Assembly (NCBI GenBank): GCA_963826535.1
Contig: CAWGXL010000011.1
Span: forward strand, 384,809-448,808
Length of the DNA stretch: 64,000 bases
Direction of reading: 5' to 3'
Source of the DNA: an uncultured bacterium
GTDB taxonomy: Bacteria > Patescibacteriota > Microgenomatia > Levybacterales > UBA12049
The notes under the pieces are model-generated. The model was not told where the DNA came from. It ran no database searches and saw only the letters and a list, made by a program, of their open reading frames with translations. The position numbers and the translations under genes were made by a program. Position 1 is the first letter of the stretch. Every line of letters starts with the position of its first letter. Positions 13,330-52,060 of the stretch are shown here, piece by piece.

Positions 13330-13440
13330 TTTAATTTTTAAAGGTGGACATTGATTTTTAAAATTCTAAATCCGAATATCGAAATTCGAAACAATTTTCA
13401 AAATTTTAATGATCAAAATTCAAAACGTTTTGAATTTAGT
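13330..13440. repeat. AT-rich palindromic intergenic element (copy 1; core AAATTCAAAACGTTTTGAATTT)
   Basis: 22-bp perfect palindrome centred on AAAACGTTTT. The left arm CCGAATATCGAAATTCGAAACAA is homologous to the copy at 20531-20650. Confidence 0.45.
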
Positions 13441-13876
13441 AATTGCCTTTTAGTGTTTCTTCCAGTTCTCTGTCAAGGTCCTTTTTCTTGAGCGCTTCCT
13501 TTTTTTCGAATTTCTTTTTTGGTTTGCCCAATGCCAATTCGAGCTTGATTAAGTTCCCAGTAGTATACAACGAAATAGGCACAATTGTCAAGCTCGTGCC
13601 TTCGGTTTTGCTCTTGAGAGCAAAGATTTGTTTTTTGTGTAAGAGAAGCTTGCGAGTACGCTTGGGGTCGTATTGATCCGGCCGCGCGTACTCGTAAGGA
13701 AAGATCTTGGCGTTTATCAGATAGGCTTCACTACCGACAATACGCACGAAACTTCCGCTCAGGTCAGCGTGATTGAGGCGTATGGCCTTGACTTCTGCTC
13801 CAAGCAAGTTGATACCGGCTTCGAATTTTTCATCTATTGAGTAGTTGTAGTGCGCTTTGCGGTTGATGATTTTCAC
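13436..13876 (-). CDS. smpB: SsrA-binding protein SmpB
   Basis: Full-length similarity to SmpB (NRKAHYNYSI...LLLHKKQI), 146 aa. Confidence 0.85.
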   Translation of the reverse strand: MKIINRKAHYNYSIDEKFEAGINLLGAEVKAIRLNHADLSGSFVRIVGSEAYLINAKIFPYEYARPDQYDPKRTRKLLLHKKQIFALKSKTEGTSLTIVPISLYTTGNLIKLELALGKPKKKFEKKEALKKKDLDRELEETLKGNY

Positions 13877-13916
13877 TCACTCATAATATCGAATCAGGAG
13901 TCAGGAATCAAGGATG

Positions 13917-15659
13917 TTAGAGGGGGAGTTCGTAGATTTTGTTGTCTGAAAGTACTAGGGCTTTTTGGTCTGATTCTAAGATTTCGAAGTTTTTGGCTGA
14001 TTGGATAATATCCGCATTATATTGATTTTGGTATGAGCCACTTTTTCCAAGTTTGACGATTCTTGAGTTGCCGTTGTCGAGAATGTAGATGTTGTCTATG
14101 TCTATATTTGTGAAGATCCTAGTGGGGTTTGCAAGAGGCGTAAGTAATCCGGAAATCGCGAAGTTTTCAGGTTGCCCGCTTGTGTATTTGAGTATTTTTC
14201 CATCACTAGTGAGAATCCAGATTGAACCGTCAATGCTCATGCTACGGGCGTTGGTTAGGACGGGCGGGTTTTCTTTAAAGTAAGCAGTTTTATTGAAGCC
14301 GGTTTGGGCTACAACGTATTTCAATACGCCTGCTTTTTTGTCCAGGATATAGATATTTCCTTGATAGAGGGAGAGAGCAACAGGCGAGCTCCAGTCATTA
14401 TTGTTTTCGATGATGTCTTTTTTTTCATCGTTGGATTTGTCAATTGTAGTTACAGCTTTACCTGTCAGAAGATAGATTGCTGCGTCATCCTGAGCGTAAT
14501 CGACAGCCTTATTGTTTTTTTCAATATTGAGAAGATCGGATGCGTCGGCATTTACAGCAATGGGGGAAATTTTCTTCACATTTGTCGCGGTATTTAATTC
14601 TGTTTGTACTTGAATTAATAGTGCCTGAAGATTGACTTGTTCTTTGGAGCCGGATTTAAATTTGTTCATGTTATCTTTGAGAATCTGCTCAGCTTTTACG
14701 AAGTCGTCATGAGCCAGGATTTGGTTTAGTTTTTTTAGAGCCTTTCCTTCTTCATAGTTTTTTTGAGCCTGGGGGTAGACTTGTTGGTAGAGCGCTTCGT
14801 ACTTTTCGTTTTCCTGTTTTGATTTAGTAAAAATTATACTAGTTGTGAGCAAGATTAGGATAAGTACGGCAACGATTAGTGAAATTTTCTGTAAACGCGA
14901 GAGGCGGGGGATTTGTAGTTTAAGTTTTTTTTGGAGTTTAAGAAAGGTTGAGGGTACATTCTGGTTTGCCGCAGGCTCAGGCAGAATTGGATGTTGAGTT
15001 GAAGGCATCGTAATTTCATCGTTGACAACCTGGGTTTTGGGTGCGCCATTATAGGTGATAATTATAGCTGCCTGACTTCCGTCCTCTTTTTCGTGAACAT
15101 GGGGAGAGAGACTCTCGGCTATGTCATTGGGAAGTTCTAGTTTGAGAGCTTCGTTAATTTTTTCTTCTGAGACACACTTAGTAAAATGATCGGTTTGGAG
15201 CATGATAGTATCGTGTGGTTGTAAATATCCTGAAGCTGTCGCAGGCTGTGGACCGGAAACTTTTTTTTCCAGCAATAGACCTAGTAATTCAGTTCTCTTC
15301 ATAATGATTTTTCCTTTTCCAACAACGAAGAGGTAAAGTATATTGTCTTTAAAATAAGCGATGCAGGCGTCAGCAACTATATCGGGAGGGAGATTGATGC
15401 TTTTTTCTATGGCAGTTTTGATGGTTTGAAGTTTTTTATCTTCCAGAGTGAAGAATTCAGCTTCAAGATTGTTGAACAGATCTTTTCCAATTGAAGGTAA
15501 AACTAAATCCTGTTTGTTTTGATCTGTTATTGTTAACGAGAGCGCAACGAAGAGGCTTCCTGCATTGTAGACCTGTGACCACGAAAACGGGGTGGGAGTC
15601 GCAACTATTTTTGCGTATGCGAGACTCAGTTTGGGCACATGAAGGTCCGAGTTAGGCAT
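13917..15659 (-). CDS. hypothetical membrane-anchored protein with central TM and C-terminal repeat (beta-propeller-like) region
   Basis: 580 aa; the TM helix LIVAVLILILLTTSIIF is mid-protein; the C-terminal half has repeated YILD / ILT-like beta-strand motifs. Confidence 0.45.
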   Translation of the reverse strand: MPNSDLHVPKLSLAYAKIVATPTPFSWSQVYNAGSLFVALSLTITDQNKQDLVLPSIGKDLFNNLEAEFFTLEDKKLQTIKTAIEKSINLPPDIVADACIAYFKDNILYLFVVGKGKIIMKRTELLGLLLEKKVSGPQPATASGYLQPHDTIMLQTDHFTKCVSEEKINEALKLELPNDIAESLSPHVHEKEDGSQAAIIITYNGAPKTQVVNDEITMPSTQHPILPEPAANQNVPSTFLKLQKKLKLQIPRLSRLQKISLIVAVLILILLTTSIIFTKSKQENEKYEALYQQVYPQAQKNYEEGKALKKLNQILAHDDFVKAEQILKDNMNKFKSGSKEQVNLQALLIQVQTELNTATNVKKISPIAVNADASDLLNIEKNNKAVDYAQDDAAIYLLTGKAVTTIDKSNDEKKDIIENNNDWSSPVALSLYQGNIYILDKKAGVLKYVVAQTGFNKTAYFKENPPVLTNARSMSIDGSIWILTSDGKILKYTSGQPENFAISGLLTPLANPTRIFTNIDIDNIYILDNGNSRIVKLGKSGSYQNQYNADIIQSAKNFEILESDQKALVLSDNKIYELPL

Positions 15660-15662
15660 TAT

Positions 15663-15908: not shown

Positions 15909-16076
15909 AGGTTAGGACTTGTAAAAAAATAACTTATACAAACTGACTCGTCTTTTTGGCGGAATTTTTCGTTGCCGATCAACTCAAGTATACACCGTAT
16001 ACTATCGCTGATCAGCGCCTTGAATTCCACTCAAAAATACTTCGTGATTTTGCATAACCTATTTTTTTACAAGTCC

Positions 16077-19937: not shown

Positions 19938-20531
19938 ATGAGCGATAATGAAGGGGGTTATGAGGCGTTTCCAACTTATACTACGAGGTCAAGAAATGGT
20001 AATCGTTTTTTTCTGGTTTTTATCATAATTTTTGTATTGGCTGCGATTATACTTGGGGGATTATACTTTCTTGGTTCTTCAGAGAATTCTTCAAAGGAGA
20101 ATTCAATAGTAGTTAGGCCTACGTCGAAAATAGAAGCAACAGCAACTCCTTTGCCTACATCCTCAGCATCTGCTGTATTGACAGTTAGTGTGACGGGAGT
20201 ATTGACGCCTGCGGCAAAAATTTCATCTGTTGATGGGACGACGAAGCTAGATAGAAGTAAATTGGCAGTTGCTGTTCTTAATGGAAGCGGTGTGGCAGGA
20301 GCGGCGCTTGGGGTGTCAAATTATCTGGAAGGGCTGGGTTATAATATTGTTAAGGTGGATAATGCAAACGCATTTACTTATACTAATTTGACTGTTCAAG
20401 TAAAGAAAAGTAAGAGCGGTTATGCGGGGTTACTTAAGAAAGATCTAGAGGCAAATCCTGAATTAGCCAGTGTATCGGCGAGTATATCTGATGATATATC
20501 TAATGAAGCGGAAGTGATAGTTGGAAAATAA
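19938..20531 (+). CDS. LytR_C domain-containing membrane-anchored protein
   Basis: N-terminal TM; C-terminal AVLNGSGVAGAALGVSNYLEGLGYNIVKVDNA is typical of LytR C-terminal domains. Confidence 0.5.
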   Translation: MSDNEGGYEAFPTYTTRSRNGNRFFLVFIIIFVLAAIILGGLYFLGSSENSSKENSIVVRPTSKIEATATPLPTSSASAVLTVSVTGVLTPAAKISSVDGTTKLDRSKLAVAVLNGSGVAGAALGVSNYLEGLGYNIVKVDNANAFTYTNLTVQVKKSKSGYAGLLKKDLEANPELASVSASISDDISNEAEVIVGK

Positions 20532-20650
20532 ACTCGAAATTCGAATATCGAAATCCGAAACAATGACAGAAATATAAATGACCAAATGATCAAAACGTTT
20601 TTGGCATTTTGTATTTAGAACATTTGAATTTGTTTCGAATTTCGTGCTTT
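20531..20650. repeat. AT-rich palindromic intergenic element (copy 2; arms CGAAATTCGAATATCGAAATCCGAAACA / inverted, centre CAAAACGTTTTTG)
   Basis: The left arm and the reverse-complemented right arm match each other and also match copy 1. Confidence 0.45.
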
Positions 20651-20669
20651 GATATTCGGATTTTTGTTT

Positions 20670-24160: not shown

Positions 24161-24394
24161 TCAGTACTGAGGTTTAGTTGATGCGGTGGGGGTTAATTCT
24201 GCTTCGATGGAGCTGGTTAGGATTTTGGGTTTTCCTATCAGGATAAGAGTGAGGATTGAGAGGATGACGATGATGGCAATCAATATCAAAGTAAAAATAA
24301 GGGTTTTTTTGCCTGATTCGCGGCTGTATTTTTTAAGACTCTGCGGGATGGGTAATTGAGACTCTTTGGACATATTTTTATCATATATGAACAA
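24161..24394 (-). CDS. small single-TM protein
   Basis: 77-aa ORF between the two PBP genes with one hydrophobic helix. Confidence 0.35.
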   Translation of the reverse strand: MFIYDKNMSKESQLPIPQSLKKYSRESGKKTLIFTLILIAIIVILSILTLILIGKPKILTSSIEAELTPTASTKPQY

Positions 24395-24425
24395 ATCTCA
24401 AATCTCAAATGTCAAAGCTATAATT

Positions 24426-26618
24426 TTAGGGTTTAGGGGTGGGGGTAGGGACGGGGCAGCTGGCGCAAAATTTGTTTCCGAGCGGATCGGTTATCACGTA
24501 TTCCTCTCTGGATTCAACGTTTTCAGTCTGTCCGTCTTTGGCTAAGTTGTTAGTGGATTTATCAATCCAGACCGATGTTTTGGCCGGGCCTGTTGTTTTG
24601 GGCTCAGTTCCTTTTACAAAATATTCGAGGCGGGTGGGGCAGCGATTTGCTGGGTCTGCCTGGGGGAGGAAGCCTGTATTGGAGCAGACAGATTTGGTTA
24701 CAACGTCAGTTGGTTTGGCCGGGTTTCTGGGCTCTTTGCCCTCCAACATATGCGTCATAAGTTTGTTCCAGATAGGGGCTGCTCCTGTAAGGCCTGAGAC
24801 AAGTCCGGTCATGGGGGTACGGTCGTTATTTCCGACCCATACGGAAACAACATATTGCGGAGTGTAGCCAATTGTCCAATTGTCTTTGTAATCATTGGTT
24901 GTTCCGGTTTTGACAGATACAAATTTTTTGCCTATTTTTAATTCTGAGTTTGGACCGAATGCCTCTTGTCTTGCATTGTTGTCGGCAAGAATATCAGAGA
25001 TGATCCAGGCGACTGCGGACGGGAGCACTTTTATCCCAAAGATCGGGCTTTTGGGAGGTTTATATTCTTCCAAAGTTTTACCATTTCGATCTGTTACTTT
25101 GAGGATAGGGTGCAGATCGACTCGATATCCTTGATTTGCAAATACTCCAAAGGCAGTTGTCATGTCAATCATTGTAACTTCACCTCCACCCAGAGTTAAT
25201 GATAACCCGTACCGGCTTGGGTCTTTAAATGACCTAATCCCCATGCTTGACGCGGTCGCAATCATGGACTCCAGGGTGTTGATCTTGAGCATTTCGACGG
25301 CGGGGATATTGAATGAGTTAGCTAAAGCATAGCGCATTTGGACAACACCATGGAAGCGGCCATCATAGTTGCGCGGGCAATACTTGACTGTGCCGGGGCT
25401 TGAGAAGCATAACGCTGTGTCAATAAAGGGAGTTGCAGCAGTATAGCCTTTTAGTAATCCAACAGCATAATTTATGGGTTTGATCGAGGATCCAGGTTGA
25501 AGCTGCTGAGCAGTCATATTCATATTTCCATCTTTGGGATCGTACCAATCTTTACTGCCAATCATTGCCAAGATTTCTCCAGTCGCGGGACTGGCGATAA
25601 GAGCAGCGCCATTGCCAACTTTATTCTGTTTTAATTTTGCTACTTCTGAAGCAACGACTAGTTGGGCAAATTCCTGGAGATCGAGGTCCAGACTTGTATA
25701 CACTTTCAACCCCCCTTGTTCTACAATATTTTCTCCATATTTATTTTGCAGGAGATCTCTTACGTAAAACACAAAATGGGGTGCTTTTATGGGATTGGTG
25801 ATTTTTTGGAATTGCAGTTCTTCGGCTGCAGCTTTATCGCGTTCTGTTTTATTGATATATCCCTGTTCAAACATTTTTTTTAGAATTTCTTTTTGTCTTT
25901 TTTTGCCGAGTTCGGGATGAGAGCCTAAAGGGGAGTATGTGCTAGGTGCTTCAGGAAGACCGGCTAAGTAGGCTTGCTGAGCAAGAGAAATGTTTTTTAC
26001 AGGTTTGCCGAAATAGGTTTGGGCTGCAGCTTCAACTCCGTACGAAGTTCCACCGTAAGGTACCTGATTGAGATACATTTCCAGGATTTCGTTTTTTGTG
26101 TACATGAATTCAACAACTACACTCAAAGCCAGTTCTTTGATCTTTCGAGTGAGAGTACGTTCAGGGGTTAGCAGTCCGTTTTTAACCAATTGCTGAGTCA
26201 GCGTAGAACCTCCTTGCAGCGTTTTCTGAAAGACGGTTGAATAGAATGCCCGAATAATTCCGCGAATGTCGACTGCGCCATGTTTATAGAAGTCTTTATC
26301 TTCGATGGCAATAGTTGCAAGTTGCAAGGTTTTGGGGATTTTTTCCAGCGGCATAAAGGTTTGGTTACGATTTGCGTAGATTGTATAGAGATGTGTTCCA
26401 TTTCTATCATAAATTTGGGTAGAATATGATACAGTAGTATTGCCTAACTTTGTCGGGGAGGGTAGGTCTTTGAGGAAGTAAAAGTAAAATGCTGTAGCAA
26501 CTATGACTGCGAGAATGCTGAGCAAAATAATACCAATTAATAGCCTTTTTCCTAAAAGATACATTTTTAGGAGTTTTGGTTTTTTTATAATTTTTTTATA
26601 GTGTTTAATTGTTGACAT
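24426..26618 (-). CDS. penicillin-binding protein 1A paralog
   Basis: EDKDFYKHGAVD, GGSTLTQQL, SSIK, KTGTT; a paralog of the adjacent gene. Confidence 0.85.
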   Translation of the reverse strand: MSTIKHYKKIIKKPKLLKMYLLGKRLLIGIILLSILAVIVATAFYFYFLKDLPSPTKLGNTTVSYSTQIYDRNGTHLYTIYANRNQTFMPLEKIPKTLQLATIAIEDKDFYKHGAVDIRGIIRAFYSTVFQKTLQGGSTLTQQLVKNGLLTPERTLTRKIKELALSVVVEFMYTKNEILEMYLNQVPYGGTSYGVEAAAQTYFGKPVKNISLAQQAYLAGLPEAPSTYSPLGSHPELGKKRQKEILKKMFEQGYINKTERDKAAAEELQFQKITNPIKAPHFVFYVRDLLQNKYGENIVEQGGLKVYTSLDLDLQEFAQLVVASEVAKLKQNKVGNGAALIASPATGEILAMIGSKDWYDPKDGNMNMTAQQLQPGSSIKPINYAVGLLKGYTAATPFIDTALCFSSPGTVKYCPRNYDGRFHGVVQMRYALANSFNIPAVEMLKINTLESMIATASSMGIRSFKDPSRYGLSLTLGGGEVTMIDMTTAFGVFANQGYRVDLHPILKVTDRNGKTLEEYKPPKSPIFGIKVLPSAVAWIISDILADNNARQEAFGPNSELKIGKKFVSVKTGTTNDYKDNWTIGYTPQYVVSVWVGNNDRTPMTGLVSGLTGAAPIWNKLMTHMLEGKEPRNPAKPTDVVTKSVCSNTGFLPQADPANRCPTRLEYFVKGTEPKTTGPAKTSVWIDKSTNNLAKDGQTENVESREEYVITDPLGNKFCASCPVPTPTPKP

Positions 26619-26733: not shown

Positions 26734-27780
26734 ATGCCGGACTTCGCTTTTCTTTTTGCACAAGTTATTAATTTTTTACAGTCACTTTTTCCCGAACTGC
26801 AGATTAATTTGCTGGACGTCATTATAATAATTGTCATAGTTTATTATGCTATAGAGGGATATGCTTTGGGGTTTGTATTGGCTTTTTTTGATCTTTTGAG
26901 TTTTGTTTTTTCTTTTTTTCTAGCACTCAAGTATTATATTTTTGTCGCCGGGGCTTTAACAACTTATTTTTCTATACATATAGGGTTTGCCCATGCTGTT
27001 GGTTTTTTCCTAATTGCTTTTCTTAGCGAGATCATCATAAATATTCTTTTTCGTTATTTACTACGTTATTTGCCCTCAATTCAATCTCCGAGGCGAATTT
27101 TTCAATTTTTCAGAAGCATAGATCATTTTTTGGGGATTCTTCCCGGCATAGCATCTGCTTTTATTGTGCTAGCATTTTTGCTTACGGTTATTGTGTCTCT
27201 TCCGTCCGCACCGCTAATTAAGCGATTGGTAACAGGATCAGAAATAGGTTCGATGCTAATTGCTAATACCTCGATGTTTGAGAGGAGGCTTAATGATGTT
27301 TTCGGAGGGGCGTTGAATGAGTCGCTTACGTATCTTACGGTTAAGCCGGAGAGCGATGAATTCGTTAAGTTGCGTTTCAAGGTTAACGATGGGACTGTTG
27401 AAGTCAGCGCTGAGGAGCAAATGTTGAAGATAGTTAATAGAGAGCGCGAAGCGAATGGATTACAGCCTGTGGAAATGAGCACTCGTCTTAGGACATTAGC
27501 AAGGAGTCATTCCCTGGATATGTTACAGCGAGGATATTTTTCACATTATACGCCTGATGGATTGTCACCGTTTGACCGAATGGACAGCGCAGGTATCGAG
27601 TATGCCTATGCAGGAGAAAATTTGGCTTTGGCTCCAAGTACGGAGCTGGCAATGCAGGGGCTTATGGATAGCCCGGGGCACAGGGCAAATATCCTGAATC
27701 CGAATTTTAATAAAATTGGCATTGGGGCGATTGATGGGGGGATATATGGGATTATGTTCTCGCAGGAGTTTACTAATTAA
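26734..27780 (+). CDS. CvpA-like membrane domain fused to CAP/SCP (PR-1-like) domain
   Basis: N-terminal 4-5 TM segments (CvpA-like); C-terminal ...YAGENLA...GHRANILNPNFNKIGIGA is typical of CAP domains. Confidence 0.55.
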   Translation: MPDFAFLFAQVINFLQSLFPELQINLLDVIIIIVIVYYAIEGYALGFVLAFFDLLSFVFSFFLALKYYIFVAGALTTYFSIHIGFAHAVGFFLIAFLSEIIINILFRYLLRYLPSIQSPRRIFQFFRSIDHFLGILPGIASAFIVLAFLLTVIVSLPSAPLIKRLVTGSEIGSMLIANTSMFERRLNDVFGGALNESLTYLTVKPESDEFVKLRFKVNDGTVEVSAEEQMLKIVNREREANGLQPVEMSTRLRTLARSHSLDMLQRGYFSHYTPDGLSPFDRMDSAGIEYAYAGENLALAPSTELAMQGLMDSPGHRANILNPNFNKIGIGAIDGGIYGIMFSQEFTN

Positions 27781-27804
27781 GACGTAAGACGTATGATTTG
27801 ATTC

Positions 27805-29155: not shown

Positions 29156-29228
29156 GGGCCAGTAGTTCAGCGGCTAGAACGGGCGTCTTATACACTCCAT
29201 GTCGGAGGTTCGAGTCCTCCCTGGCCCA
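29156..29228 (+). tRNA. tRNA-Ile, anticodon reads UAU
   Basis: GGGCCAG-TA-GTTCAGCGGCTAGAAC-G-GGCGT-CTTATAC-ACTCC-ATGTC-GGAGG-TTCGAGT-CCTCC-CTGGCCC-A; one C:U mismatch in the anticodon stem. Confidence 0.55.
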
Positions 29229-29382
29229 CAAACTGTAATTTGTTATGATAAATAAAGACTTCTTTGGGTTTGTAGCCTGCTTTGCTGGTGTAAAATACCA
29301 TAATGAAACCAGAACTAGACAGAACATTAGGGTTGAGGCTATATGAAGATCGGGATAAAATTAGTAGAATGAAGACAATGAT

Positions 29383-33810: not shown

Positions 33811-33944
33811 ACTTACGACGTATGACTTAAGACTTAAGATTTAAGATGTACGAGGAAGTGGATTTTTGCAAATTTTCTTACTTCGCTAATTCATACTTAT
33901 TAACCTGCTTTTACAATGGCTTTTTAGCATGAATAGGGTGGTTA

Positions 33945-36358: not shown

Positions 36359-36611
36359 TTGCGGGGCTAGGAGTTGAACCTAGCCTGTGAGATTATGCAT
36401 CGGTTGCTCCGATTACTCGGAGTGTCGGACTATATCATTCCCGATTAAATCGGGATTCAGCGTATAGTCTCTACGGGTTCTCGCCTAGGCGAGTCTTCCC
36501 TCGGTATTGCCCAGCTAAGCTGGGTTTCACCGATATAGCTGAATTCTCTGTTATATGTTGCCATATAAAGGGCCCATTTTGAGCCTCACGTGCGCCGTAC
36601 ACTACCCCGCG
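36359..36611 (-). tRNA. initiator tRNA-fMet (CAU) interrupted by a ~184-nt group I intron in the anticodon loop
   Basis: Minus strand. Exon 1 is CGCGGGG-TA-GTG-TACGGCG-CAC-G-TGAGG-CT (36611..36582). Exon 2 is CATAA-TCTCA-CAGG-CTAGG-TTCAACT-CCTAG-CCCCGCA-A (36397..36359). The 5' CGCGGGG and 3' CCCCGCAA are identical to E. coli tRNA-fMet and give the C1xA72 mismatch. The spliced anticodon loop is CUCAUAA. Confidence 0.7.
36398..36581 (-). other. group I intron (inserted between nt 33 and 34 of tRNA-fMet)
   Basis: U at -1 of the 5' splice site; the intron ends in G (omega G). GGGCC at intron nt 8-12 can pair with exon GGCU to form P1. GUAGAGACUA and AUAUAGUCCGAC match the conserved P7 strands (AGACUA / UAGUC) of Azoarcus and Tetrahymena group I introns. 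Confidence 0.65.
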
Positions 36612-36680
36612 ATATTATTTTCATTATTATAACAATTGATTCATTCAAGGTCAAATGTTATACTTTTACCACTAAAATAA

Positions 36681-38259: not shown

Positions 38260-38286
38260 TTGTGTTTTAATTGGGAAAATTAAACT

Positions 38287-39192
38287 ATGACCTTTCTTGA
38301 AAAATACGAGCTACTTAAAAAATCTATTCCTGTTCCGGCTGTTAATGCCAGCTCGTCTGTTGACTGCGATTATACTGATTTTGTCGATCGATGCAAGAAT
38401 TGCTACTATGCCTTCGATGCGTATTATCTTGAAAACAATATTTATACATACTATGGAGCATATAACAAAATGTTATTAGATTGTCATGGAATGGGTGAAT
38501 GTGAGAAATGTTATGAAAGTGCCGACTGTACCAAATGCCACAGCTGCACTTATTTAATAAACTGCAATAGCAGTAGTGACTGTCATTTTTCAGCCTACCT
38601 AAATTCATGCAATGATTGCTTCGGTTGTGTTGATTTAACTCATAAAAAATATTGCATATTTAACCGTCAATATACAAAGGAGGAATACTTCAAAAAAATT
38701 GAAGAGCTAAAAACAGAAAATCCAAAGAATTTACTAGAGCAAATGTCAGATCTCGAACGAAAGTTGCCGCATCCTGCAACTTACCAATCCAATAGCGAAA
38801 ATTGTCCATACGGTAATAATATTTATAATTCAAAGAATTGTTTTTGGTCTTTCAATACATATTATTTTGAAAACTCGGGCTATTCTTATTATGTATCATA
38901 CGCAAAGAATTGTTGGGATGTCTCTGAATTTGGAGGAAACCCGGGAGTAAAAACAATTTCGGAGAGATGTTATGAGAATTTAAATACAGAGACTTGTTAC
39001 GATTGCACATTTCTTGTGTCAAGCAAGAGTTGTACAAACTGTCATTATAGTAATCAGCTTATAAATTGCTCTGATTGTTTCGGCTGTACCGGGCTAAAAA
39101 ATAAAAAATATTGTGTTTTAAATAATCAACTAACGAAAGAACAATACGAACAAGCCCTAAGAGAGATTAAAAAAGAGTTGGGGTGGAAATAA
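38287..39192 (+). CDS. cysteine-rich internally duplicated repeat protein (paralog 1 of 3)
   Basis: 301 aa with about 40 Cys in CxxC / CFGC motifs; two homologous halves, each ending CFGCxxLxxKKYCxxNxQxTKEQY. The N-terminus MTFLEKYELLKKSIPVPAV is shared with the genes at 62769 and 63707. Confidence 0.6.
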   Translation: MTFLEKYELLKKSIPVPAVNASSSVDCDYTDFVDRCKNCYYAFDAYYLENNIYTYYGAYNKMLLDCHGMGECEKCYESADCTKCHSCTYLINCNSSSDCHFSAYLNSCNDCFGCVDLTHKKYCIFNRQYTKEEYFKKIEELKTENPKNLLEQMSDLERKLPHPATYQSNSENCPYGNNIYNSKNCFWSFNTYYFENSGYSYYVSYAKNCWDVSEFGGNPGVKTISERCYENLNTETCYDCTFLVSSKSCTNCHYSNQLINCSDCFGCTGLKNKKYCVLNNQLTKEQYEQALREIKKELGWK

Positions 39193-41715: not shown

Positions 41716-42738
41716 ATGAATAAGAAACGAGTTTATTCCGGGATTAGAGCGACGGGGAGATTGCATTTGGGGAATTATCTTGGAGCTGTTAAGGGTATGA
41801 TTGAATTGCAAGACCGGTATGACTGCGTTTTTTCCGTAGTTGATTTGCACGCTATTACTACTCCTTATGAACCGAAGAACCTTCGCGATTCGGTGCGTAA
41901 TGTCGTTATAGATTACCTGGCTGCCGGACTTGACCCGAAAAAATGTTTTGTCGAGGTGCAGTCAAAAGTTCCACAACACATTGAACTTGCTTATTTGCTA
42001 TCAACTATTTATCCGGTATCAAGGCTTGAAGATTTGCCGACGTATAAAGAAAAGAAAGCGCAGTACCCAAAGTATGTGAATATGGGACTCCTATATTATC
42101 CGGTACTTATGGCTGCAGATATACTATTATATAAGGCAGAGTTGGTGCCGGTGGGGATTGACCAGGAGCCCCATTTGGAGGTATCCCGTGAGATCGCGAG
42201 GAAATTTAATAGTATGTTCGGGGTGATTTTTCCTGAGCCGAAAAGATTCCTGCCTGCCGGCAGGCAGGTGAGACAGGGAGAGTATGTGCCTTCTTTAATC
42301 GGGGCAGGCAAGATGAGTAAAACTGTTGAGGGGAGTTATATTACTTTAGCTGATGATTTGGAGATGATCCGGAAGCGTTTGGCGAAGGCGCCCACTGACA
42401 GCGGGACAAGCGGGGGAGAGATTCCGAAGGACCTGACTACCGGCAGGCAGGGGGCGGGAGTTGCAAACTTATTTAAACTGTTTAATCTGTTTGTTAATCA
42501 TGAAATGTATAATAGGTTTGTTCAGGATTATCGAGAGAAGAAAATCCGCTATTCCGAGATGAAAAATGTTTTAGCGGAGGCGATTTATAAAGAAATAAAG
42601 CCTATTCAGGAAAAAAGAAAAAAGTATGAGGAAAATCCAAAAATTGTTGATGAAATTATAATTGAGCACGCTGAAAAGTGCAGGTTGTTAGCGGACGAAA
42701 CGATGAAAGAGGTAAAAGTAAAAATGGGGCTACTTTAA
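41716..42738 (+). CDS. trpS: tryptophan--tRNA ligase
   Basis: Class I HIGH-like GRLHLGNYLG and KMSKT (GKMSKTV); 340 aa. Contains a 20-bp perfect palindrome at 42249-42268. Confidence 0.85.
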   Translation: MNKKRVYSGIRATGRLHLGNYLGAVKGMIELQDRYDCVFSVVDLHAITTPYEPKNLRDSVRNVVIDYLAAGLDPKKCFVEVQSKVPQHIELAYLLSTIYPVSRLEDLPTYKEKKAQYPKYVNMGLLYYPVLMAADILLYKAELVPVGIDQEPHLEVSREIARKFNSMFGVIFPEPKRFLPAGRQVRQGEYVPSLIGAGKMSKTVEGSYITLADDLEMIRKRLAKAPTDSGTSGGEIPKDLTTGRQGAGVANLFKLFNLFVNHEMYNRFVQDYREKKIRYSEMKNVLAEAIYKEIKPIQEKRKKYEENPKIVDEIIIEHAEKCRLLADETMKEVKVKMGLL

Positions 42739-44851: not shown

Positions 44852-45099
44852 GAGTATAACAAATTGTTATAGGACTTGATTATTAAGATAGATTAATATA
44901 TAAGTAAATCAACAATTTAACTAATCAAGAGTGATGGGGAGAGAATTGGCTTGATGATCCATCCAGCAACCGGCTACAAAAGCAGCGGTGCTACACCCAA
45001 CCCTGTAGGGGGAAGGATTTGTCCTTGGAGTAATCAAAGGAAAATATTTTATACCTCTCTTTACAGGAGAGGTTTTTTTGTGGGAAGGAGGCGAAATAT

Positions 45100-45891
45100 A
45101 TGCATGAAAGAGATAGGGATGGGATTAGGCGTATTCAACAAAATTTAGTTGAAAACAAAGGACAACAAGAGCAAAAGTCTTCGAGAGTGGAAGGGGTGCG
45201 AAGAGAGCTTGTGAGAATTGCCAACGAAACAAAAGCAAAATATAAGAGGGAAGAGGAGGCAATGCGTCCAGATGCAGAGGTTGCTGTTAAAGAAATAATT
45301 CAACCTTGGTTTTCAGACTTAATTGCTTCAGGTACATACGAAGACCTATTAAGGTGGTCAAGGTTTAACGAGTATAATGTCTATCTCTCGGAAACAATTT
45401 TATACTATTGGCCTAATCGTGCTCTAAAGGAGATAGCAAGTGGAGACAGTAAGCTTTATAAAGATAAAGCAGAATTCGTGGTTGAAAGATATAAAGGATC
45501 AGATATCAAAAAAGGAATTCAGTCCCACGCTGATAGAGACAATGTATGGCATGCTGGTTTTAAGATGGGTAGAGGCAGGTGGCGTGATAATACTGATGGA
45601 TTAAGAATTTGGCGGTGGCCAGTGGTAGGAGGGGGATTTGCCTTTTCTCAGAGTGCGATTTACTATGAAATTCCTGTAAATGAGCACAGCGTTGCCTTTT
45701 TTTTGGACAGGATTAGTCCAGAGGTATGGGTAGAATTTGGCAAGCAGATTGAAAGCGGAAAGGCTTGGGATGCAATAGAGCGCTCTATGAAACCGAAAAA
45801 GAGAGCGTCAGCTCGAGAAGCAACCGAAAGAGATGTAGAAGAAGAAAAAAGAGTTGCTCAAGAGTACCTAAGGAACCGGCAATGGCACTAA
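45100..45891 (+). CDS. hypothetical protein
   Basis: 263-aa ORF; charged and Trp-rich; no motif recognised. Confidence 0.4.
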   Translation: MHERDRDGIRRIQQNLVENKGQQEQKSSRVEGVRRELVRIANETKAKYKREEEAMRPDAEVAVKEIIQPWFSDLIASGTYEDLLRWSRFNEYNVYLSETILYYWPNRALKEIASGDSKLYKDKAEFVVERYKGSDIKKGIQSHADRDNVWHAGFKMGRGRWRDNTDGLRIWRWPVVGGGFAFSQSAIYYEIPVNEHSVAFFLDRISPEVWVEFGKQIESGKAWDAIERSMKPKKRASAREATERDVEEEKRVAQEYLRNRQWH

Positions 45892-47570: not shown

Positions 47571-48217
47571 AAATCCCAGAGAATATAAAAGCAGTTATTT
47601 TTGATGTTGATGAGCTTCTACTGGATACAGAGCACTTATGGTTTAAGACACATAATGAGTTCTTGAGAAGACGAAATTATGTCTATAAGGATGAAATGCA
47701 TAGAGAAATAACAGGGTTGGGACATAAAGAGGTTAGCTTGTTTTATAAACAGCGCTTTGCTCTTCCAAATAAATGGGAAGAAATTGGTTTAGAATTTCGG
47801 GGGATTTTTTATTCGCTATTAACACAAGAGATACAGTTAATGGATGGCGCACGAGTTTTAGTTGAACAATTATATAAAAAGAGATACAAGCTAGCTGTAG
47901 CAACAGGTGGTTATTCGAGAGATAAAATTACGGGAATATTGAAAGACTTAGATATGAAAAAATATTTTTCAGTTATTGTTTCGGGAGATGAGGTTGAAAG
48001 GGGAAAGCCATATCCTGATATTTATCTTGAAACAGCAAAACAGCTAAATGTATCACCACAGCAGTGTATTGTTTTAGAAGATGCGATGAACGGGATTCTT
48101 GCAGCTAAAAAAGCTAAAATGATGGTATTTGGTGTTAATAAAGACGAAAAGATGAGAGAAGAGTTGGTAAAAGCAGGAGCAGATAAAGTGTTAACAAGCT
48201 TAACGGAAATTATTTGA
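47567..48217 (+). CDS. HAD-IA family hydrolase (beta-phosphoglucomutase-like)
   Basis: Motif I FDVDELLLDTE and the ...GG....K...I... HAD pattern. Confidence 0.7.
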   Translation: MKIPENIKAVIFDVDELLLDTEHLWFKTHNEFLRRRNYVYKDEMHREITGLGHKEVSLFYKQRFALPNKWEEIGLEFRGIFYSLLTQEIQLMDGARVLVEQLYKKRYKLAVATGGYSRDKITGILKDLDMKKYFSVIVSGDEVERGKPYPDIYLETAKQLNVSPQQCIVLEDAMNGILAAKKAKMMVFGVNKDEKMREELVKAGADKVLTSLTEII

Positions 48218-49428
48218 TGAAAGTTGCTTTAGTGCACGATTACATAAAAGAATACGGCGGAGCGGAGAGGGTTTTGGAGGCGTTGCATGAGATTTATCCG
48301 GATGCGCCTGTTTTTACTTCGGTGTATATACCTTCATTTTTGGGGCCGCATAGAGAACGATTTGCGCGATGGGATATACGGACGTCGATTTTGCAGCATA
48401 TACCATTCAAGCATAAGCTTATCAGTCCATTCCGAATGTTTAGCCCATGGGTTTTTAAACAGTTTGATTTGTCGGATTATGATTTGGTGATTGTATCGGC
48501 GACGGGGGCTTACGAACCAAATATGGTTCGTACTAAGAACCAAGAACCAAGAACTAAGAACAATAAGGGAGCTATTCATATTTGTTATTGTCATACGCCG
48601 CCGAGGTATCTGTATGGTTACGCAACGGCGAGAGATTGGAAGAGGCATAGGATTTTTGCAGTTTTGGGGGCGGTTTTCAATCATTTTTTGCGGATGGTTG
48701 ATTTCGCGGCGTCAAGACATGTAGATTTTTATATTGCGAATTCAGAGGAAGTGGCGGGGAGGATTAAGAAGTTTTATAGGAGCGAAGCTACTGTTATTTA
48801 TCCTCCTGTAGAAATTCAAAATTCAAAATTACAAATCAAAAATCAAAAAGGAATGGATTCCCGCCTTTCCCACAAGGGGACTACATTCTCCGAAGGGTCG
48901 CGCGGGAATGACGATAAGAGGAAAGATTATTTTTTAACTGGGGGTAGGTTGGCGATGGCTAAGCATTTTGATCTTATTGTTCGTGCTTGTCGAGAACTAG
49001 ACGTTCCTTTAAAAGTATTTGGCAAGTCGTTTGCCGGGTATGGTGAGAAACTTGAGGATTTAGCAGGACGAAAGACTGAATTTTTTGGAGAAGTAAGTGA
49101 TGAGGAAAAGTTTAAACTTATGGCGGGAGCGAAAGCGTTTTTGTTTGCTTCAGAAGATGAGGATTTTGGGATTGTGCCGGTTGAGGCGATGGGTTGCGGG
49201 ATTCCGGTTATAGCTTATAAGTCGGGAGGGGTGAAGGAAACAGTGATAGAGGGAAAGACGGGGGTGTTTTTTGAGGAACTAACAGCGGAGAGTTTTAAAA
49301 AAGCGATACAAAAGTTTGAGAAAATGAAATTTGACCCATATGATTCTAGAAAGCAAGCTCAGAAGTTCTCGAAAGAGAGGTTTGACATGGAATTTAAAGA
49401 ATTTGTTAAAAGACTTTTTAGTGAGTAA
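48214..49428 (+). CDS. GT4 family glycosyltransferase with two in-frame repeat insertions
   Basis: C-terminal EDFGIVPVEAMGCGIPVIAYKSGG (E-x7-E region). Insertions at 48513-48566 and 48811-48912. Confidence 0.75.
   Translation: MMKVALVHDYIKEYGGAERVLEALHEIYPDAPVFTSVYIPSFLGPHRERFARWDIRTSILQHIPFKHKLISPFRMFSPWVFKQFDLSDYDLVIVSATGAYEPNMVRTKNQEPRTKNNKGAIHICYCHTPPRYLYGYATARDWKRHRIFAVLGAVFNHFLRMVDFAASRHVDFYIANSEEVAGRIKKFYRSEATVIYPPVEIQNSKLQIKNQKGMDSRLSHKGTTFSEGSRGNDDKRKDYFLTGGRLAMAKHFDLIVRACRELDVPLKVFGKSFAGYGEKLEDLAGRKTEFFGEVSDEEKFKLMAGAKAFLFASEDEDFGIVPVEAMGCGIPVIAYKSGGVKETVIEGKTGVFFEELTAESFKKAIQKFEKMKFDPYDSRKQAQKFSKERFDMEFKEFVKRLFSE
48513..48566. repeat. in-CDS insertion: palindrome cgaaccaaatatggttcg plus (c/t)aagaac heptamer repeats
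   Basis: Encodes PNMVRTKNQEPRTKNNK inside the GT4 gene; homologous to the ligase insertion at 59312-59366. Confidence 0.55.
48811..48912. repeat. in-CDS composite insertion: heptamer array (aaattca...) plus nested GC hairpin attcccgc[...cccacaaggggactac...]gcgggaat
   Basis: Shares the outer hairpin with 39619-39645 and the inner CCCACAAGGGGACTAC core with 61336-61351. Confidence 0.55.
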
Positions 49429-49465
49429 TTTTCAATTTAAAATTTGAAATTGAAATTTTTAAATT

Positions 49466-50314: not shown

Positions 50315-50373
50315 GCTCTACTTTTTTAGTCTTATAGTTTGATATTTATTATGATTTCCGTTATAATTATTGC

Positions 50374-51090
50374 ATGGGTGAATTACTTATACGACGCGAA
50401 ATTCATGAATATAATGTACATCAAGCTGTAGCTTTAGATTTAGATAGAACTTTAGGCAGTGTTAAGGCAGCTATGGCCCGATTTTATGCGGCAGCAAGGT
50501 TTTGTGGAATACCGGTAGAACAAATCGACGAAGAACGTCGCGAAGTGGAAAGTAAGGGCGGTACATTTGAACCTCTACATTCTATAGAAGATAAGCTTAC
50601 ACCAGAATTAAGACATAAATTTAATTATCGTTTTACAACTTTAAAGAATCCTCCAATTTTATATGATGATGCAATCACTTTCTTAAATAATCTAGAAAGG
50701 AACGCTATGCCTTTTCATTTGATTACTTATGGGGTAAATCCTGAGTGGCAACGACTCAAAGTAGAGGCAAGCGGTTTTCGGGGTGGCGTGACAATTTTGG
50801 ATGATTCTAATAAAGGAAGGGAAATTGCCGGTTGGAGCTCAGGAGGTAAATATGAGCTTGCTTTAGAGGGAGGTGCCGAGAAGACAGTATATCGTGCGGA
50901 TACTGTTTGTTTAATTGATGATAAAGCAGTAGCATTCAATGATCTACCACAAGACTGCAGCGGGTTTTTGCTACAACGAGGTGATGAGTTGCTTGCGAGT
51001 CAACAGGGTTCAGTGCCGGAGAATGTGAGAACTATTCATAGTTTGGATGAGTTGATAGTAGTAAATGGTGTAATTACGCCCCGGAGATAG
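50374..51090 (+). CDS. hypothetical protein (possible HAD-like DxD start)
   Basis: ALDLDRTL near the N-terminus; otherwise unassigned. Confidence 0.35.
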   Translation: MGELLIRREIHEYNVHQAVALDLDRTLGSVKAAMARFYAAARFCGIPVEQIDEERREVESKGGTFEPLHSIEDKLTPELRHKFNYRFTTLKNPPILYDDAITFLNNLERNAMPFHLITYGVNPEWQRLKVEASGFRGGVTILDDSNKGREIAGWSSGGKYELALEGGAEKTVYRADTVCLIDDKAVAFNDLPQDCSGFLLQRGDELLASQQGSVPENVRTIHSLDELIVVNGVITPRR

Positions 51091-51166
51091 AGTTTCTTCA
51101 AAAATTGTATTTATGTAAAAGTTGTGCTATCATCTTGATGGATTCGTACTTTTTCATGACATTAGT

Positions 51167-51874
51167 ATGACAAACAACGGACGGGATAGGGTTATTATAT
51201 CAGTAAGCGGTTCTCTAATCGTCCCTAATGGGGGAATTGGTACGGATTTTCTTGCTAAGCTTAATAGCTTTATCCGAGAGCAACTGACGCAACATCCAAA
51301 GCGTCAGTTTTTTTTGGTTATAGGGGGCGGATCGATCGCGCGGCATTATATTGATGCAGGCCGGGAAGTTTTGAAACATCAACTTTCGGGGGAGGATTTG
51401 GATTGGCTGGGGATTCATGCGAGCCGACTCAACGCTCATTTGGTAAGGACTATTTTTCGAGATATTGCACATGCATATATTATTGATGATTATGATGTCA
51501 TTAGAAAGGCCACGGAATCGGTTATTGTTGCTTCCGGATGGCGACCGGGATGGTCGACTGATTATTGTGCAATGTTACTCTGCGAGGATTATGCTGAAGA
51601 TACACTTATTAATTTGGGTGTTCTGAAGCAACTTTACGATCGCGATCCGAATGAGCATGTTGATGCCAGAGCACTAGAAAAAATTCGATGGGACGATTTT
51701 CGGAAATTAGTGGGTGAGAAGTGGACACCGGGAATGCATGCGCCTTTTGATCCGATTGCTACTAAGAAAGCGCAGGAATTGGGGGTCAAAGTAGTTATTA
51801 TGTCGGGAAAGGATTTTGAGAATTTGGATAAGTATTTCAGGAGAGAAAAGTTTGTGGGAACTGTGATTGAATAA
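51167..51874 (+). CDS. amino-acid kinase family protein, probable UMP kinase
   Basis: RVIISVSGSLIVP...FFLVIGGGSIARHYI resembles PyrH-type UMP kinases. Start set at MTNNG. Confidence 0.55.
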   Translation: MTNNGRDRVIISVSGSLIVPNGGIGTDFLAKLNSFIREQLTQHPKRQFFLVIGGGSIARHYIDAGREVLKHQLSGEDLDWLGIHASRLNAHLVRTIFRDIAHAYIIDDYDVIRKATESVIVASGWRPGWSTDYCAMLLCEDYAEDTLINLGVLKQLYDRDPNEHVDARALEKIRWDDFRKLVGEKWTPGMHAPFDPIATKKAQELGVKVVIMSGKDFENLDKYFRREKFVGTVIE

Positions 51875-52060
51875 AAATCCAAAATACAAAATCATAAATT
51901 CCAACAATAAATTACAAATTCAAAATTACAAATCCTAAATAAATTCAAATATTTAAATTCTAAATCCAAAACGTTTTGAATTTTTAAAATTAGAATTTTG
52001 ATATTATTTGGAATTTGGTGCTTTGAATTTGTAATTTACATCTGGCAGTTTGGATTTCGA
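51874..52060. repeat. AT-rich palindromic intergenic element (copy 3), 7-bp-periodic arms around CCAAAACGTTTTGAATTT
   Basis: The left arm (aaattca / acaaatt heptamers) and the right arm (gaatttt / aatttgt) are reverse complements around the AAAACGTTTT centre. Lies between the kinase gene and recF. Confidence 0.5.

What the first reader, a model, noticed from the sequence alone, without database searches (positions are those of the whole stretch)
13330..52060. Family of AT-rich palindromic intergenic elements centred on AAAACGTTTT
Three spacers (13330-13440, 20531-20650, 51874-52060) share one architecture. An imperfect palindrome of about 50-90 bp per arm is built from 7-bp-periodic units (aaattca / cgaaatt on the left, their complements on the right) around a central CAAAACGTTTTG. 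Copies 1 and 2 share near-identical arms (CCGAATATCGAAATTCGAAACAA). Copy 1 contains the 22-bp perfect palindrome AAATTCAAAACGTTTTGAATTT. Copy 1 separates smpB from ssrA; copy 2 precedes rpiB; copy 3 precedes recF. This looks like a MITE-like dispersed element or a shared protein-binding site (bidirectional terminator, nucleoid protein or regulator site). Shorter arrays of the same heptamers occur at 24396-24425, 49429-49465, 62703-62768 and, as gacgtaa / acttaag units, at 27778-27804 and 33812-33850.
Basis: seen in the sequence. Interest (0 to 1): 0.55.

Follow-up and report, generated by a model that had tools for sequence, protein, structure and literature searches.

The report
Dispersed heptad-repeat foldback insertion elements
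Three AT-rich palindromic spacers in this Levybacteria-like (CPR/Patescibacteria) genome are real copies of a widespread, small, non-coding element built from 7-bp repeats; related uncultured bacteria carry the same family inside their rRNA genes at classic intervening-sequence sites, so the copies are most likely selfish foldback inserts, not terminators or regulator sites.

Summary
AAAACGTTTT occurs exactly three times in 64 kb (0.25 expected), each time at the centre of a 7-bp-periodic AT-rich spacer. The three copies resemble each other far beyond composition (z = 9-11). Copy 1 is only a half element: one arm plus a 22-bp palindrome.

Comparative data change the interpretation. The 22-mer core recovers about 95 metagenome stretches, and nearly all have the same arm consensus, (AAAtNcN)x4-AAAcAA-~20 nt-AAATTCAAAAC|G, mirrored. 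Twenty-four of these loci carry the element inside 16S or 23S rRNA genes, at helix-25, helix-45 and helix-63 type sites and others, up to four per 23S gene. Orthologous spacers in relatives either lack the element or hold a different heptad hairpin. Copies on one contig are more alike than copies on different contigs. The two arms of one element pair no better than arms swapped between elements, so symmetry lies in the family consensus, not in compensatory evolution.

Best reading: a MITE/IVS-like foldback insertion element with no known mobilising enzyme, probably folded and processed as double-stranded RNA when transcribed. A terminator role is contradicted. A heptad-binding protein site is not excluded.

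No description of this family was found in the literature searched.

The parts
13346..13437 (.). Copy 1, a half element. One heptad arm (13346-13415; A-rich on the + strand, U-rich in the smpB-to-ssrA transcript) plus the 22-bp perfect apex palindrome AAATTCAAAACGTTTTGAATTT (13416-13437), which abuts the smpB stop codon. The second arm is absent.
   Evidence: nhmmer family profile hit at 13346-13426(+), E = 3e-12 against the window alone and 5.8e-11 against all held sequence. The window copies were not used to build the profile.
20532..20668 (.). Copy 2, a complete element that fills the spacer from the TAA of ORF 19938-20531 to the ATG of rpiB. Left arm 20532-20587, variant apex TCAAAACGTTTTTG at 20590-20603, right arm 20606-20668.
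   Evidence: I7, I23; one hairpin, -40 kcal/mol, z = -4.4; arm hits 20519-20587(+) and 20668-20606(-).
20644..20650 (+). Extra unpaired GTGCTTT heptad in the right arm of copy 2. This is the family's arm asymmetry.
   Evidence: In rRNA-borne relatives this heptad type occurs only in the 3' arm of the sense strand (14 versus 0 of 29).
51875..52060 (.). Copy 3, a complete and longer element between pyrH and recF. Left arm 51875-51961, core AAATCCAAAACGTTTTGAATTT 51962-51983, right arm 51984-52060.
   Evidence: I2, I3, I5, I8; one hairpin, -42 kcal/mol, z = -5.6; 51908-51972(+), 52045-51973(-). It is 86% identical to a copy on the non-syntenic metagenome contig L106.
52018..52024 (+). Extra GTGCTTT heptad in the right arm of copy 3, in the same position and orientation as in copy 2.

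Best explanation
The three spacers are copies of a small (about 110-190 bp), non-coding, dyad-symmetric 'foldback' insertion element that is widespread in CPR-like (Patescibacteria-like) genomes.

Anatomy. Each arm is a run of degenerate heptads with the consensus (AAAtNcN)x4-AAAcAA-~20 nt-AAATTCAAAAC. The two arms meet head to head at a CG. One arm often carries extra AAGCAC-type heptads.

Shown:
- The family exists well beyond this genome.
- Its members occupy gene spacers and also the tips of rRNA helices.
- Presence varies between orthologous sites.
- Copies within one genome resemble each other more than copies elsewhere.

Inferred:
- The element spreads, or once spread, at the DNA level. 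The machinery is trans-acting and unidentified, because the element encodes nothing and no transposase is linked to it.
- It is tolerated because, once transcribed, its A-rich 5' arm folds onto its U-rich 3' arm. This brings the flanks back together.
- In rRNA the result would be a protruding expansion, or an RNase III-excised intervening sequence.
- In the smpB-ssrA, X-rpiB and pyrH-recF spacers the result would be a long imperfect A-U hairpin. That hairpin is a likely double-stranded-RNA processing site that separates the cistrons; it is not a terminator or an operator.
- The copies here are dispensable passengers.
For: Family and statistics:
- Core count 3 against 0.25 expected.
- Inter-copy similarity z = 9-11.
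- The profile built from metagenome arms hits all 5 window half-elements, E 3e-12 to 6e-6 against the window alone, and nothing else in the window below E = 0.04.

Breadth:
- 95 stretches carry the exact 22-mer, 96 core sites in all. Of these, 68 have both arms and 21 have one arm detected (this is circular, because the profile was built from those arms).
- 69 further half-element hits are not adjacent to an exact 22-mer core and show variable apexes.
- Related GTDB genomes also hold copies: L001, L013 and L024.

Insertional behaviour:
- The smpB-ssrA spacer is empty in L003 (SmpB 81% identical) but holds a diverged homologous copy in L001.
- The spacer before rpiB is 2-17 nt in L001, L004 and L008.

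rRNA location:
- 24 of 95 loci have the element inside rRNA genes.
- L114 has four copies in one 23S gene plus one just upstream.
- In L076 a 147-nt copy sits after E. coli 23S nt 547 (helix 25), and another after nt 1709.
- Short ORF-less inserts at such sites in CPR rRNA are reported but uncharacterised, and are presumed to be RNase III IVSs (PMC11270868).

Intragenomic spread or homogenisation: pairs on the same contig are 77% identical, pairs on different contigs 69% (p = 2e-13).

Folding: z = -4.3 to -5.6.
Against: - No target-site duplication, autonomous partner or linked transposase was found.
- No pair of near-identical genomes with and without a copy was available, so mobility is inferred from comparisons at genus or family distance.
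- The arms of one element pair no better than chimeric arms (MFE -34.7 versus -33.2, p = 0.05; apex-only test p = 0.14). They are also no more complementary to each other than to arms of other elements (69% versus 68%). There is therefore no covariation evidence that the hairpin itself is selected.
- Sense and antisense folds are equally stable.
- RNase III cleavage is untested.
- High conservation of the consensus between unrelated contigs (86%) could equally reflect a host function.
- The taxonomic assignment of most metagenome contigs was not verified.
Confidence: 0.55

Rival explanations
1. The elements are heptad arrays that serve as binding platforms for a protein. Each AAAtNcN heptad would be contacted once. 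Two inverted arrays would form a dyad-symmetric nucleoprotein complex, such as a nucleoid-associated protein, a centromere-like or operator site, or an RNA-binding protein that coats the transcript.
For: - Conserved positions recur every 7 nt (AAA and C above 80%), while positions 5 and 7 vary freely and do not covary between the arms. This is the pattern expected from sequence read-out rather than pairing.
- The consensus is conserved between unrelated contigs (86%).
- Ribbon-helix-helix proteins such as omega of plasmid pSM19035 bind runs of direct and inverted 7-bp heptads (my own knowledge, not tested here).
- One cold-shock protein per heptamer has been proposed for other heptamer repeats (PMC4679880).
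Against: - Presence is variable at orthologous sites.
- Copies lie inside rRNA genes at surface helix tips, in a fixed orientation relative to the rRNA. That pattern fits an RNA-level constraint better than a chromosomal DNA site.
- No candidate protein was identified, and no gene recurs near the elements.
Confidence: 0.17
2. The elements are intrinsic terminators, possibly bidirectional, made of long A-U hairpins whose U-rich 3' arm doubles as the U-tract.
For: - Copies 2 and 3 start at the stop codon of the upstream gene.
- The 3' arm of copy 2 ends in UUUUUGUUU.
- A-rich 5' and U-rich 3' arms look the same on both strands.
Against: - No terminator-like site was found in any of the three spacers.
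- 15 of 49 classifiable copies are between divergent genes and only 5 between convergent genes.
- Copies sit inside 16S and 23S rRNA genes, up to four per gene, and directly upstream of tRNA and tmRNA genes.
- The spacer is empty in relatives.
Confidence: 0.05
3. The elements have no common ancestry or mobility. They are local products of heptamer slippage plus fold-back template switching in weakly constrained AT-rich spacers, and they look alike only because the mutational process is biased.
For: - Heptad arrays of many different units are strongly over-represented in the window: 15 arrays of at least 3 copies against 0.3 expected. They are also common in relatives.
- The orthologous pyrH-recF and GT-fpg spacers in relatives hold heptad arrays of other sequence.
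- Over-representation of heptamer repeats, attributed to polymerase slippage, is in the literature (PMC4692102).
Against: - The non-repetitive inner 30-40 nt and the 22-mer core are shared by the three copies and by about 95 stretches from many metagenomes.
- Copy 3 is 86% identical to a copy on a non-syntenic contig of 26% GC.
- The extra GTGCTT heptad is shared by copies 2 and 3 and by many relatives.
Confidence: 0.05
4. The elements are promoter- or leader-bearing modules. The outward-facing T-rich arm would supply promoter, UP-like or 5'-UTR functions to the downstream gene (ssrA, rpiB, recF, tRNAs).
For: - 90% of classifiable copies have a gene start on at least one side, and divergent contexts outnumber convergent ones 15 to 5.
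- Arms run up to the 5' ends of tRNA-Pro (L051), tRNA-Lys (L066) and a tRNA in L024, and lie upstream of the tmRNA here.
Against: - No sigma-70-like site above chance was found in the three spacers.
- Copies occur inside rRNA genes.
- Relatives express the same genes from spacers without the element.
- The ORF calls behind the context counts are crude.
Confidence: 0.08

Closest known systems
Intervening sequences (IVSs) and short non-intron inserts of bacterial 16S and 23S rRNA genes (helices 9, 25 and 45; excised by RNase III)
   Same: - Relatives of the window copies sit at the same rRNA sites: after E. coli 23S nt ~130, ~270, 547, ~1163 and ~1709, after 2782, and at two 16S sites.
- Like IVSs they are AT-rich and non-coding, have inverted-repeat ends and are sporadically distributed.
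- CPR rRNA genes are known to hold many short uncharacterised inserts at IVS sites (PMC11270868).
- The origin of IVSs is unresolved, and a transposition remnant is one old hypothesis (PMC4990558).
   Different: - The three window copies are not in rRNA but in protein-gene, tmRNA and rpiB spacers.
- Classical IVSs are not known as dispersed genomic repeat families.
- The arms are degenerate heptad arrays rather than a near-perfect terminal stem.
- RNase III excision was not tested.
MITEs and foldback transposable elements
   Same: They are small and non-coding. Inverted arms make up nearly the whole element. There are several copies per genome. Presence varies at orthologous sites. Copies within a genome are more alike than copies between genomes.
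   Different: - No target-site duplication, related autonomous element or nearby transposase was found.
- Copies within a genome are only about 75-90% identical, so there is no sign of a recent burst.
- The consensus is shared across contigs of 26-59% GC.
REP / BIME / REPIN elements of proteobacteria
   Same: They are intergenic, palindromic, dispersed and non-coding, and sit in transcribed spacers.
   Different: - REPs are about 35-bp GC-rich imperfect palindromes with a GTAG-type head and are linked to RAYT transposases. They avoid promoter-side spacers.
- Here the arms are AT-rich heptads 50-90 bp long, no such head or RAYT was seen, and many copies lie between divergent genes.
Heptameric tandem repeats of bacteria (cyanobacterial STRR, TAACTGA repeats of Beggiatoaceae, cyanobacteria and Bacteroidetes, GGGAATC repeats of Xanthomonas)
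   Same: They have 7-bp periodicity and an intergenic position close to start or stop codons. They sometimes occur as inverted pairs. Their length and sequence turn over quickly between relatives (PMC4679880, PMC4692102).
   Different: - Those are simple arrays of one unit.
- This family has a fixed composite layout: degenerate heptads, AAACAA, a non-repetitive inner part and a palindromic apex. It is conserved across genomes and also lies inside rRNA genes.
Heptad operator and centromere arrays bound by ribbon-helix-helix proteins (omega of pSM19035; my own knowledge)
   Same: Runs of 7-bp units occur in direct and inverted orientation. Conservation lies at fixed positions of each heptad.
   Different: No cognate protein is known here. 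The location inside rRNA genes and the variable presence do not fit an operator.

Membership tests
MITE / foldback element | Small, non-coding, several copies per genome | tested here: met
   The copies are 92-186 bp with no ORF. There are 3 copies in 64 kb, and up to 5 in 2.7 kb in L114.
MITE / foldback element | Terminal inverted repeats | tested here: met
   Both arms follow one consensus in inverted orientation. Copy 1 has lost one arm.
MITE / foldback element | Target-site duplication flanking the element | tested here: inconclusive
   No direct repeat is evident at the ends of the window copies or of 17 rRNA-borne copies. The element ends are fuzzy because the number of heptads varies.
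MITE / foldback element | Presence/absence polymorphism at orthologous sites | tested here: met
   The smpB-ssrA spacer is empty in L003. The rpiB spacer is 2-17 nt in L001, L004 and L008. This was seen only at genus or family distance (SmpB 74-81% identical).
MITE / foldback element | Related autonomous element or transposase with the same ends | tested here: not met
   No protein family recurs within 2.5 kb of the elements except LAGLIDADG endonucleases of rRNA introns. Whole genomes could not be searched.
rRNA intervening sequence (IVS) | Located inside a 16S or 23S rRNA gene at a helix tip (H9, H25, H45) | tested here: not met
   The three window copies are in non-rRNA spacers. The feature is met by relatives of the same family in 24 of 95 metagenome loci.
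rRNA intervening sequence (IVS) | Folds into an extended stem-loop formed by its ends | tested here: inconclusive
   Predicted single hairpins have z = -4.4 and -5.6. However, there is no element-specific arm complementarity.
rRNA intervening sequence (IVS) | Excised from the transcript by RNase III without religation | not testable with these tools
REP / BIME | GC-rich imperfect palindrome of about 35 bp with a conserved head tetranucleotide | tested here: not met
   The arms are AT-rich heptads (GC 0.21-0.30). There is no Rfam match.
Intrinsic terminator | Short GC-rich stem-loop followed by a U-tract at the 3' end of a transcription unit | tested here: not met
   No sites were found in the three spacers. 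Family members occur in divergent spacers and inside rRNA genes.
Heptameric simple sequence repeat (STRR-like) | Head-to-tail copies of one 7-bp unit | tested here: inconclusive
   Period 7 is detected in the arms. The units are degenerate (70-84% matches), and the inner 30-40 nt and the apex are not repetitive.

The most novel reading that the evidence does not exclude
The elements would represent a previously undescribed class of hairpin element in CPR bacteria, one that links two phenomena. The same heptad-armed foldback module would seed rRNA expansion or intervening sequences (at sites that match eukaryotic expansion-segment positions) and would also colonise operon spacers. It would be recognised through its heptads by a conserved host or element-specific factor. 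That would give a concrete origin for bacterial IVSs and a new mobilisation or recognition mechanism.
Probability: 0.25. Interest if true: 0.8.

Novelty: new variant of a known kind. Interest (0 to 1): 0.6.

Why it matters
- The origin of bacterial rRNA intervening sequences has been open since 1990. The many short, ORF-less inserts in CPR rRNA genes are still described as uncharacterised.
- One recognisable sequence family in both rRNA helix tips and ordinary gene spacers makes a specific idea testable: that IVSs are dispersed foldback elements.
- A simple profile of the arm plus the core can annotate these inserts in thousands of CPR genomes. This would improve rRNA gene models and spacer annotation.
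- The family also offers a defined substrate for studying RNA processing, or heptad-binding proteins, in organisms that cannot yet be cultured.

Tried and rejected
1. Rfam: there was no family match at the elements, either at the gathering threshold over the whole window or at E <= 1 on copy 3.
2. Promoter and terminator consensus scans found nothing above chance.
3. Conservation of the core at orthologous sites: AAAACGTTTT occurs at chance frequency in 654 kb of related loci and never in the smpB-ssrA spacer.
4. Arm covariation was tested four ways: identity within versus between elements, true versus chimeric MFE, an apex-only test on copies lacking the exact 22-mer core, and sense versus antisense stability. 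All were negative or marginal.
5. Restriction-site avoidance: AACGTT occurs 9 times against 8.8 expected.
6. Orientation of the GTGCTT heptad relative to flanking protein genes shows no bias for intergenic copies, unlike rRNA copies.
7. The search for a linked transposase or other recurrent neighbour found none.
8. Retrieval of the source genome failed. RecF is 100% identical to P0001 on an 894-kb contig, but the contig could not be fetched, so the genome-wide copy number is unknown.
9. The other heptad arrays in the window are not detectable family members.
10. One multi-locus Rfam call failed internally.

Full report
**Setting.** The window comes from a relative of Candidatus Levybacteria (Microgenomates, CPR/Patescibacteria).
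- Its SmpB is 60-81% identical to SmpB proteins of MAGs titled Levybacteria, Levyibacteriota or Patescibacteria.
- It carries an archaeal-type UMP kinase.
- The exact RecF protein is on record on an 894-kb contig, which could not be retrieved.

- AAAACGTTTT occurs exactly three times in 64 kb, against 0.25 expected. Each site lies in an AT-rich spacer.
- The 22-bp perfect palindrome is at 13416-13437.
- Local alignments between the three spacers score 20-28, against 9.5-11 for dinucleotide-preserving shuffles (z = 8.9-11.1).
- The five half-elements align in register. The right arms of copies 2 and 3 share an extra GTGCTTT heptad that has no partner in the left arm.
- Copies 2 and 3 fold as single long hairpins that span the whole spacer (z = -4.4 and -5.6).
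- Copy 1 is different. It has the apex palindrome and one arm only, and the other side is smpB coding sequence.

**The heptad background.**
- Period-7 tandem arrays with at least 3 copies number 15 in the window. Local (100-nt block) dinucleotide shuffles give 0.3.
- The arrays use many different units. They sit mostly at stop/start junctions, and a few lie inside ORFs.
- They are also common in several related CPR loci and in a Rufibacter locus, sometimes as inverted pairs.
- Heptamer over-representation is known in other phyla and has been ascribed to polymerase slippage or to RNA-binding proteins (PMC4692102, PMC4679880). I found nothing about it for CPR.
They are not detectable members of the AAAACGTTTT family (E 0.04 to >1).

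**Orthologous sites.**
- The smpB-ssrA arrangement is conserved across the relatives.
- In L003 (SmpB 81% identical) the spacer is TAA directly followed by the conserved box and hairpin that precede the tmRNA. Nothing lies in between.
- L001 (78% identical) holds a complete but diverged homologous element there.
- Upstream of rpiB the spacer is 2-17 nt in L001, L004 and L008. L003 and L027 have other fillers.
- Between pyrH and recF, relatives with 73-75% identical RecF carry a hairpin of other heptads (AATTCAG/CTGAATT) without the core.
- The elements are therefore dispensable and turn over. They are not conserved regulatory sites.

**The family elsewhere.**
- A scan of metagenome contigs with AAATYCAAAACGTTTTGRATTT returned 95 stretches. 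My rough composition-based expectation is a handful (inference).
- Almost all show the same flanks. From 145 distinct half-elements, the consensus reading toward the centre is (AAAtNcN)x4 AAAcAAa ttcaAAa ttcNAAa NttcNAA ATTCAAAAC|G. The AAA and C positions are above 80% conserved, and positions 5 and 7 of each heptad are free.
- A profile HMM of these arms was built without the window. It hits all five window half-elements (E 3e-12 to 6e-6) and nothing else convincing in the window.
- The same profile finds L001, L013 and L024 among the GTDB loci, and 69 further half-element hits on the metagenome contigs that are not adjacent to an exact 22-mer core.
- In those further copies the apex varies: AAAAC-loop-GTTTT, TTCTAAA/TTTAGAA, TTCCAAA/TTTGGAA and others.
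- Typical length is 150 bp, with a range of 110-190.

**rRNA location.**
- Twenty-four of the 95 loci contain rRNA genes with the element inside them.
- Rfam places a 23S rRNA at L114:3412-6572, with four elements inside it and one just upstream.
- Aligning the L076 23S gene to E. coli puts a 147-nt family member after nt 547, the tip of helix 25. Another lies after nt 1709 (helix 63 region). A different heptad hairpin lies after nt 1163 (helix 45).
- BLAST boundaries indicate further recurrent sites: after about nt 130 and 270, after nt 2782 of 23S, and at about nt 69-242 and 1114-1174 of 16S.
- Helices 9, 25 and 45 are the classic IVS sites (PMC4990558).
- Tsurumaki et al. report many short ORF-less non-intron inserts at such sites in CPR. 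They call them uncharacterised and presume they are RNase III IVSs (PMC11270868).
- The rRNA-borne copies form a specialised subset.
  - 18 of 28 carry covarying GC-rich 7-bp triloop hairpins at the outer ends of the arms. Only 2 of 44 intergenic copies do, and neither complete window copy (2 or 3) does.
  - The GTGCTT-type heptad is found only in the 3' arm of the rRNA sense strand (14 versus 0 of 29). Several of these loci are the same site from different assemblies.
  - Intergenic copies show no such polarity.

**What the symmetry means.**
- The two arms of one element are no more complementary to each other than to arms of other elements (69% versus 68%).
- True elements fold no better than chimeras (-34.7 versus -33.2 kcal/mol). 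The same holds for the apex in copies lacking the exact 22-mer core.
- The sense strand is not more stable than the antisense strand.
- Pairing potential is therefore a property of the family consensus, A-tract heptads facing T-tract heptads. It has not been maintained by compensatory change.
- This fits inverted ends constrained by recognition, or a helix that tolerates periodic mismatches. It leaves a heptad-reading protein possible.

**Genomic behaviour.**
- By crude ORF calls, intergenic copies lie between tandem (29), divergent (15) and convergent (5) genes.
- Several abut the 5' ends of tRNA genes, as copy 1 lies upstream of the tmRNA gene.
- Copies on one contig are more alike than copies on different contigs (77% versus 69%, p = 2e-13).
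- Yet copy 3 is 86% identical to a copy on a non-syntenic contig of 26% GC.
- No transposase or other gene recurs nearby, and no target-site duplication is evident.

**Conclusion.**
- The elements are best described as members of a widespread, non-autonomous foldback insertion family. It combines MITE-like genomic behaviour with IVS-like residence in rRNA.
- Shown: the family, its layout, its variable presence, its rRNA sites and its within-genome similarity.
- Inferred: DNA-level spread by unknown machinery, and harmlessness through self-folding of the transcript. For the three window copies, I also infer a long A-U hairpin that is a likely dsRNA-processing site between smpB and ssrA, before rpiB and before recF.
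- A terminator role is contradicted by the rRNA and divergent-spacer locations and by the scans.
- A gene-specific operator role is contradicted by the orthologous comparisons.
- A general heptad-binding protein remains the main rival.
- I found no description of this family in the searched literature or in Rfam. That search covers open-access papers only.

Noticed in passing
window 7019-7055, 13891-13910, 24392-24416, 27778-27793, 33809-33846, 49434-49465, 56467-56492, 62704-62761 (intergenic); 38058-38089, 48535-48561, 48812-48848, 53970-54020, 54215-54247, 55694-55725, 59333-59367 (inside ORFs): There is a general excess of 7-bp tandem arrays of many different units: 15 arrays of at least 3 copies against 0.3 expected. 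Most start within a few nt of a stop codon or fill the whole stop-to-start spacer. The in-ORF arrays are A-rich on the coding strand and encode K/N/Q-rich loops. Orthologous spacers in relatives also hold heptad arrays, but of different sequence.
   Followed up: partly
window 36406-36591 (-), within about 36378-36640: A group I intron (Rfam RF00028, 60.4 bits, E = 6e-15) interrupts what looks like a tRNA gene on the minus strand. The flanks read GCGGGGTAGTG...GGCTCAAAA and ...AGGTTCAACTCCTAGCCCCGCA. The whole-window Rfam scan and ARAGORN both missed it.
   Followed up: partly
window 48850-48918 (in the GT4 glycosyltransferase ORF 48214-49428); related copies at 61338-61370 (in ORF 61133-62701), 53570-53602 (intergenic), 24836-24868, 62032-62064: A second small repeat family has the core CCCACAAGGGGACTAC-TTC...GAAGGGTCGC inside an 8-bp GC-rich stem ATTCCCGC...GCGGGAAT. 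In the glycosyltransferase it is a 69-nt in-frame insertion encoding GMDSRLSHKGTTFSEGSRGNDDK, which is absent from the 66%-identical orthologue in L143.
   Followed up: partly
window 1-64000: GC skew is strongly positive in every 2-kb bin but one (-0.01 at 8001-10000; otherwise up to +0.37), whatever the gene orientation. An unusual strand compositional disparity has been reported for a complete Microgenomates genome (PMC7143001; title seen, paper not read).
   Followed up: no
window 13312-13360 (-) and loci L001-L037 downstream of smpB: A conserved box, AATC(A/G)ATATTC(G/A)C, followed by a variable hairpin lies directly upstream of the tmRNA 5' end in one Levybacteria clade. Another clade has a plain TTGACT-17-TATTAT promoter there. 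The heptads CGATATTCG of copies 1 and 2 resemble this box.
   Followed up: no
window 12524-12639: An 11-bp tandem repeat, ACATGTCAACT (2.8 perfect copies), lies next to the palindrome AACTACATGTCAAG/CTTGACATGTAGTT. They sit between the tmRNA gene and ORF 11172-12539(-). The arrangement looks operator-like.
   Followed up: no
window 60371-60456 versus 61132-61217: The first 86 nt of the TIGR00375-family gene (61133-62701) are duplicated at 84% identity about 760 bp upstream, in an otherwise non-coding stretch.
   Followed up: no
window 38263-39189 versus 62745-63668: Two paralogous 301-aa genes are 64-76% identical at the DNA level and have an internal 459-bp periodicity. Neither has an NCBIfam match.
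   Followed up: no
window 29156-29229; 44919-45023; 42249-42269: Three further features: a tRNA-Ile with anticodon UAU; a SAM riboswitch upstream of ORF 45100-45891; and the GC-rich palindrome CCTGCCTGCCGGCAGGCAGG inside ORF 41716-42738.
   Followed up: no
L114 3220-5888, L076 5334-7439, L050/L110/L126, L088, L096, L104 (metagenome loci): rRNA-borne copies of the family carry covarying GC-rich triloop hairpins (CC-NNN-GC-nnn-GC-NNN-GG) at both outer ends and have a fixed orientation in the rRNA. The insertion sites coincide with positions where eukaryotic rRNAs carry expansion segments (that last point is my own knowledge). L114:4707-4820 also gives a tRNA-like Rfam hit inside the 23S gene.
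   Followed up: partly
L043 10440-10570 (Rufibacter roseus), L040 6235-6365, L042 700-810, 1920-1995 and 6010-6250: Hairpins whose two arms are arrays of other heptads (AATTAGA, ATTCAGG, AGTAACC, GACTGGA) occur just downstream of smpB and elsewhere in distant lineages, including a cultured Bacteroidota species. The heptad-armed hairpin layout is therefore broader than this family.
   Followed up: no
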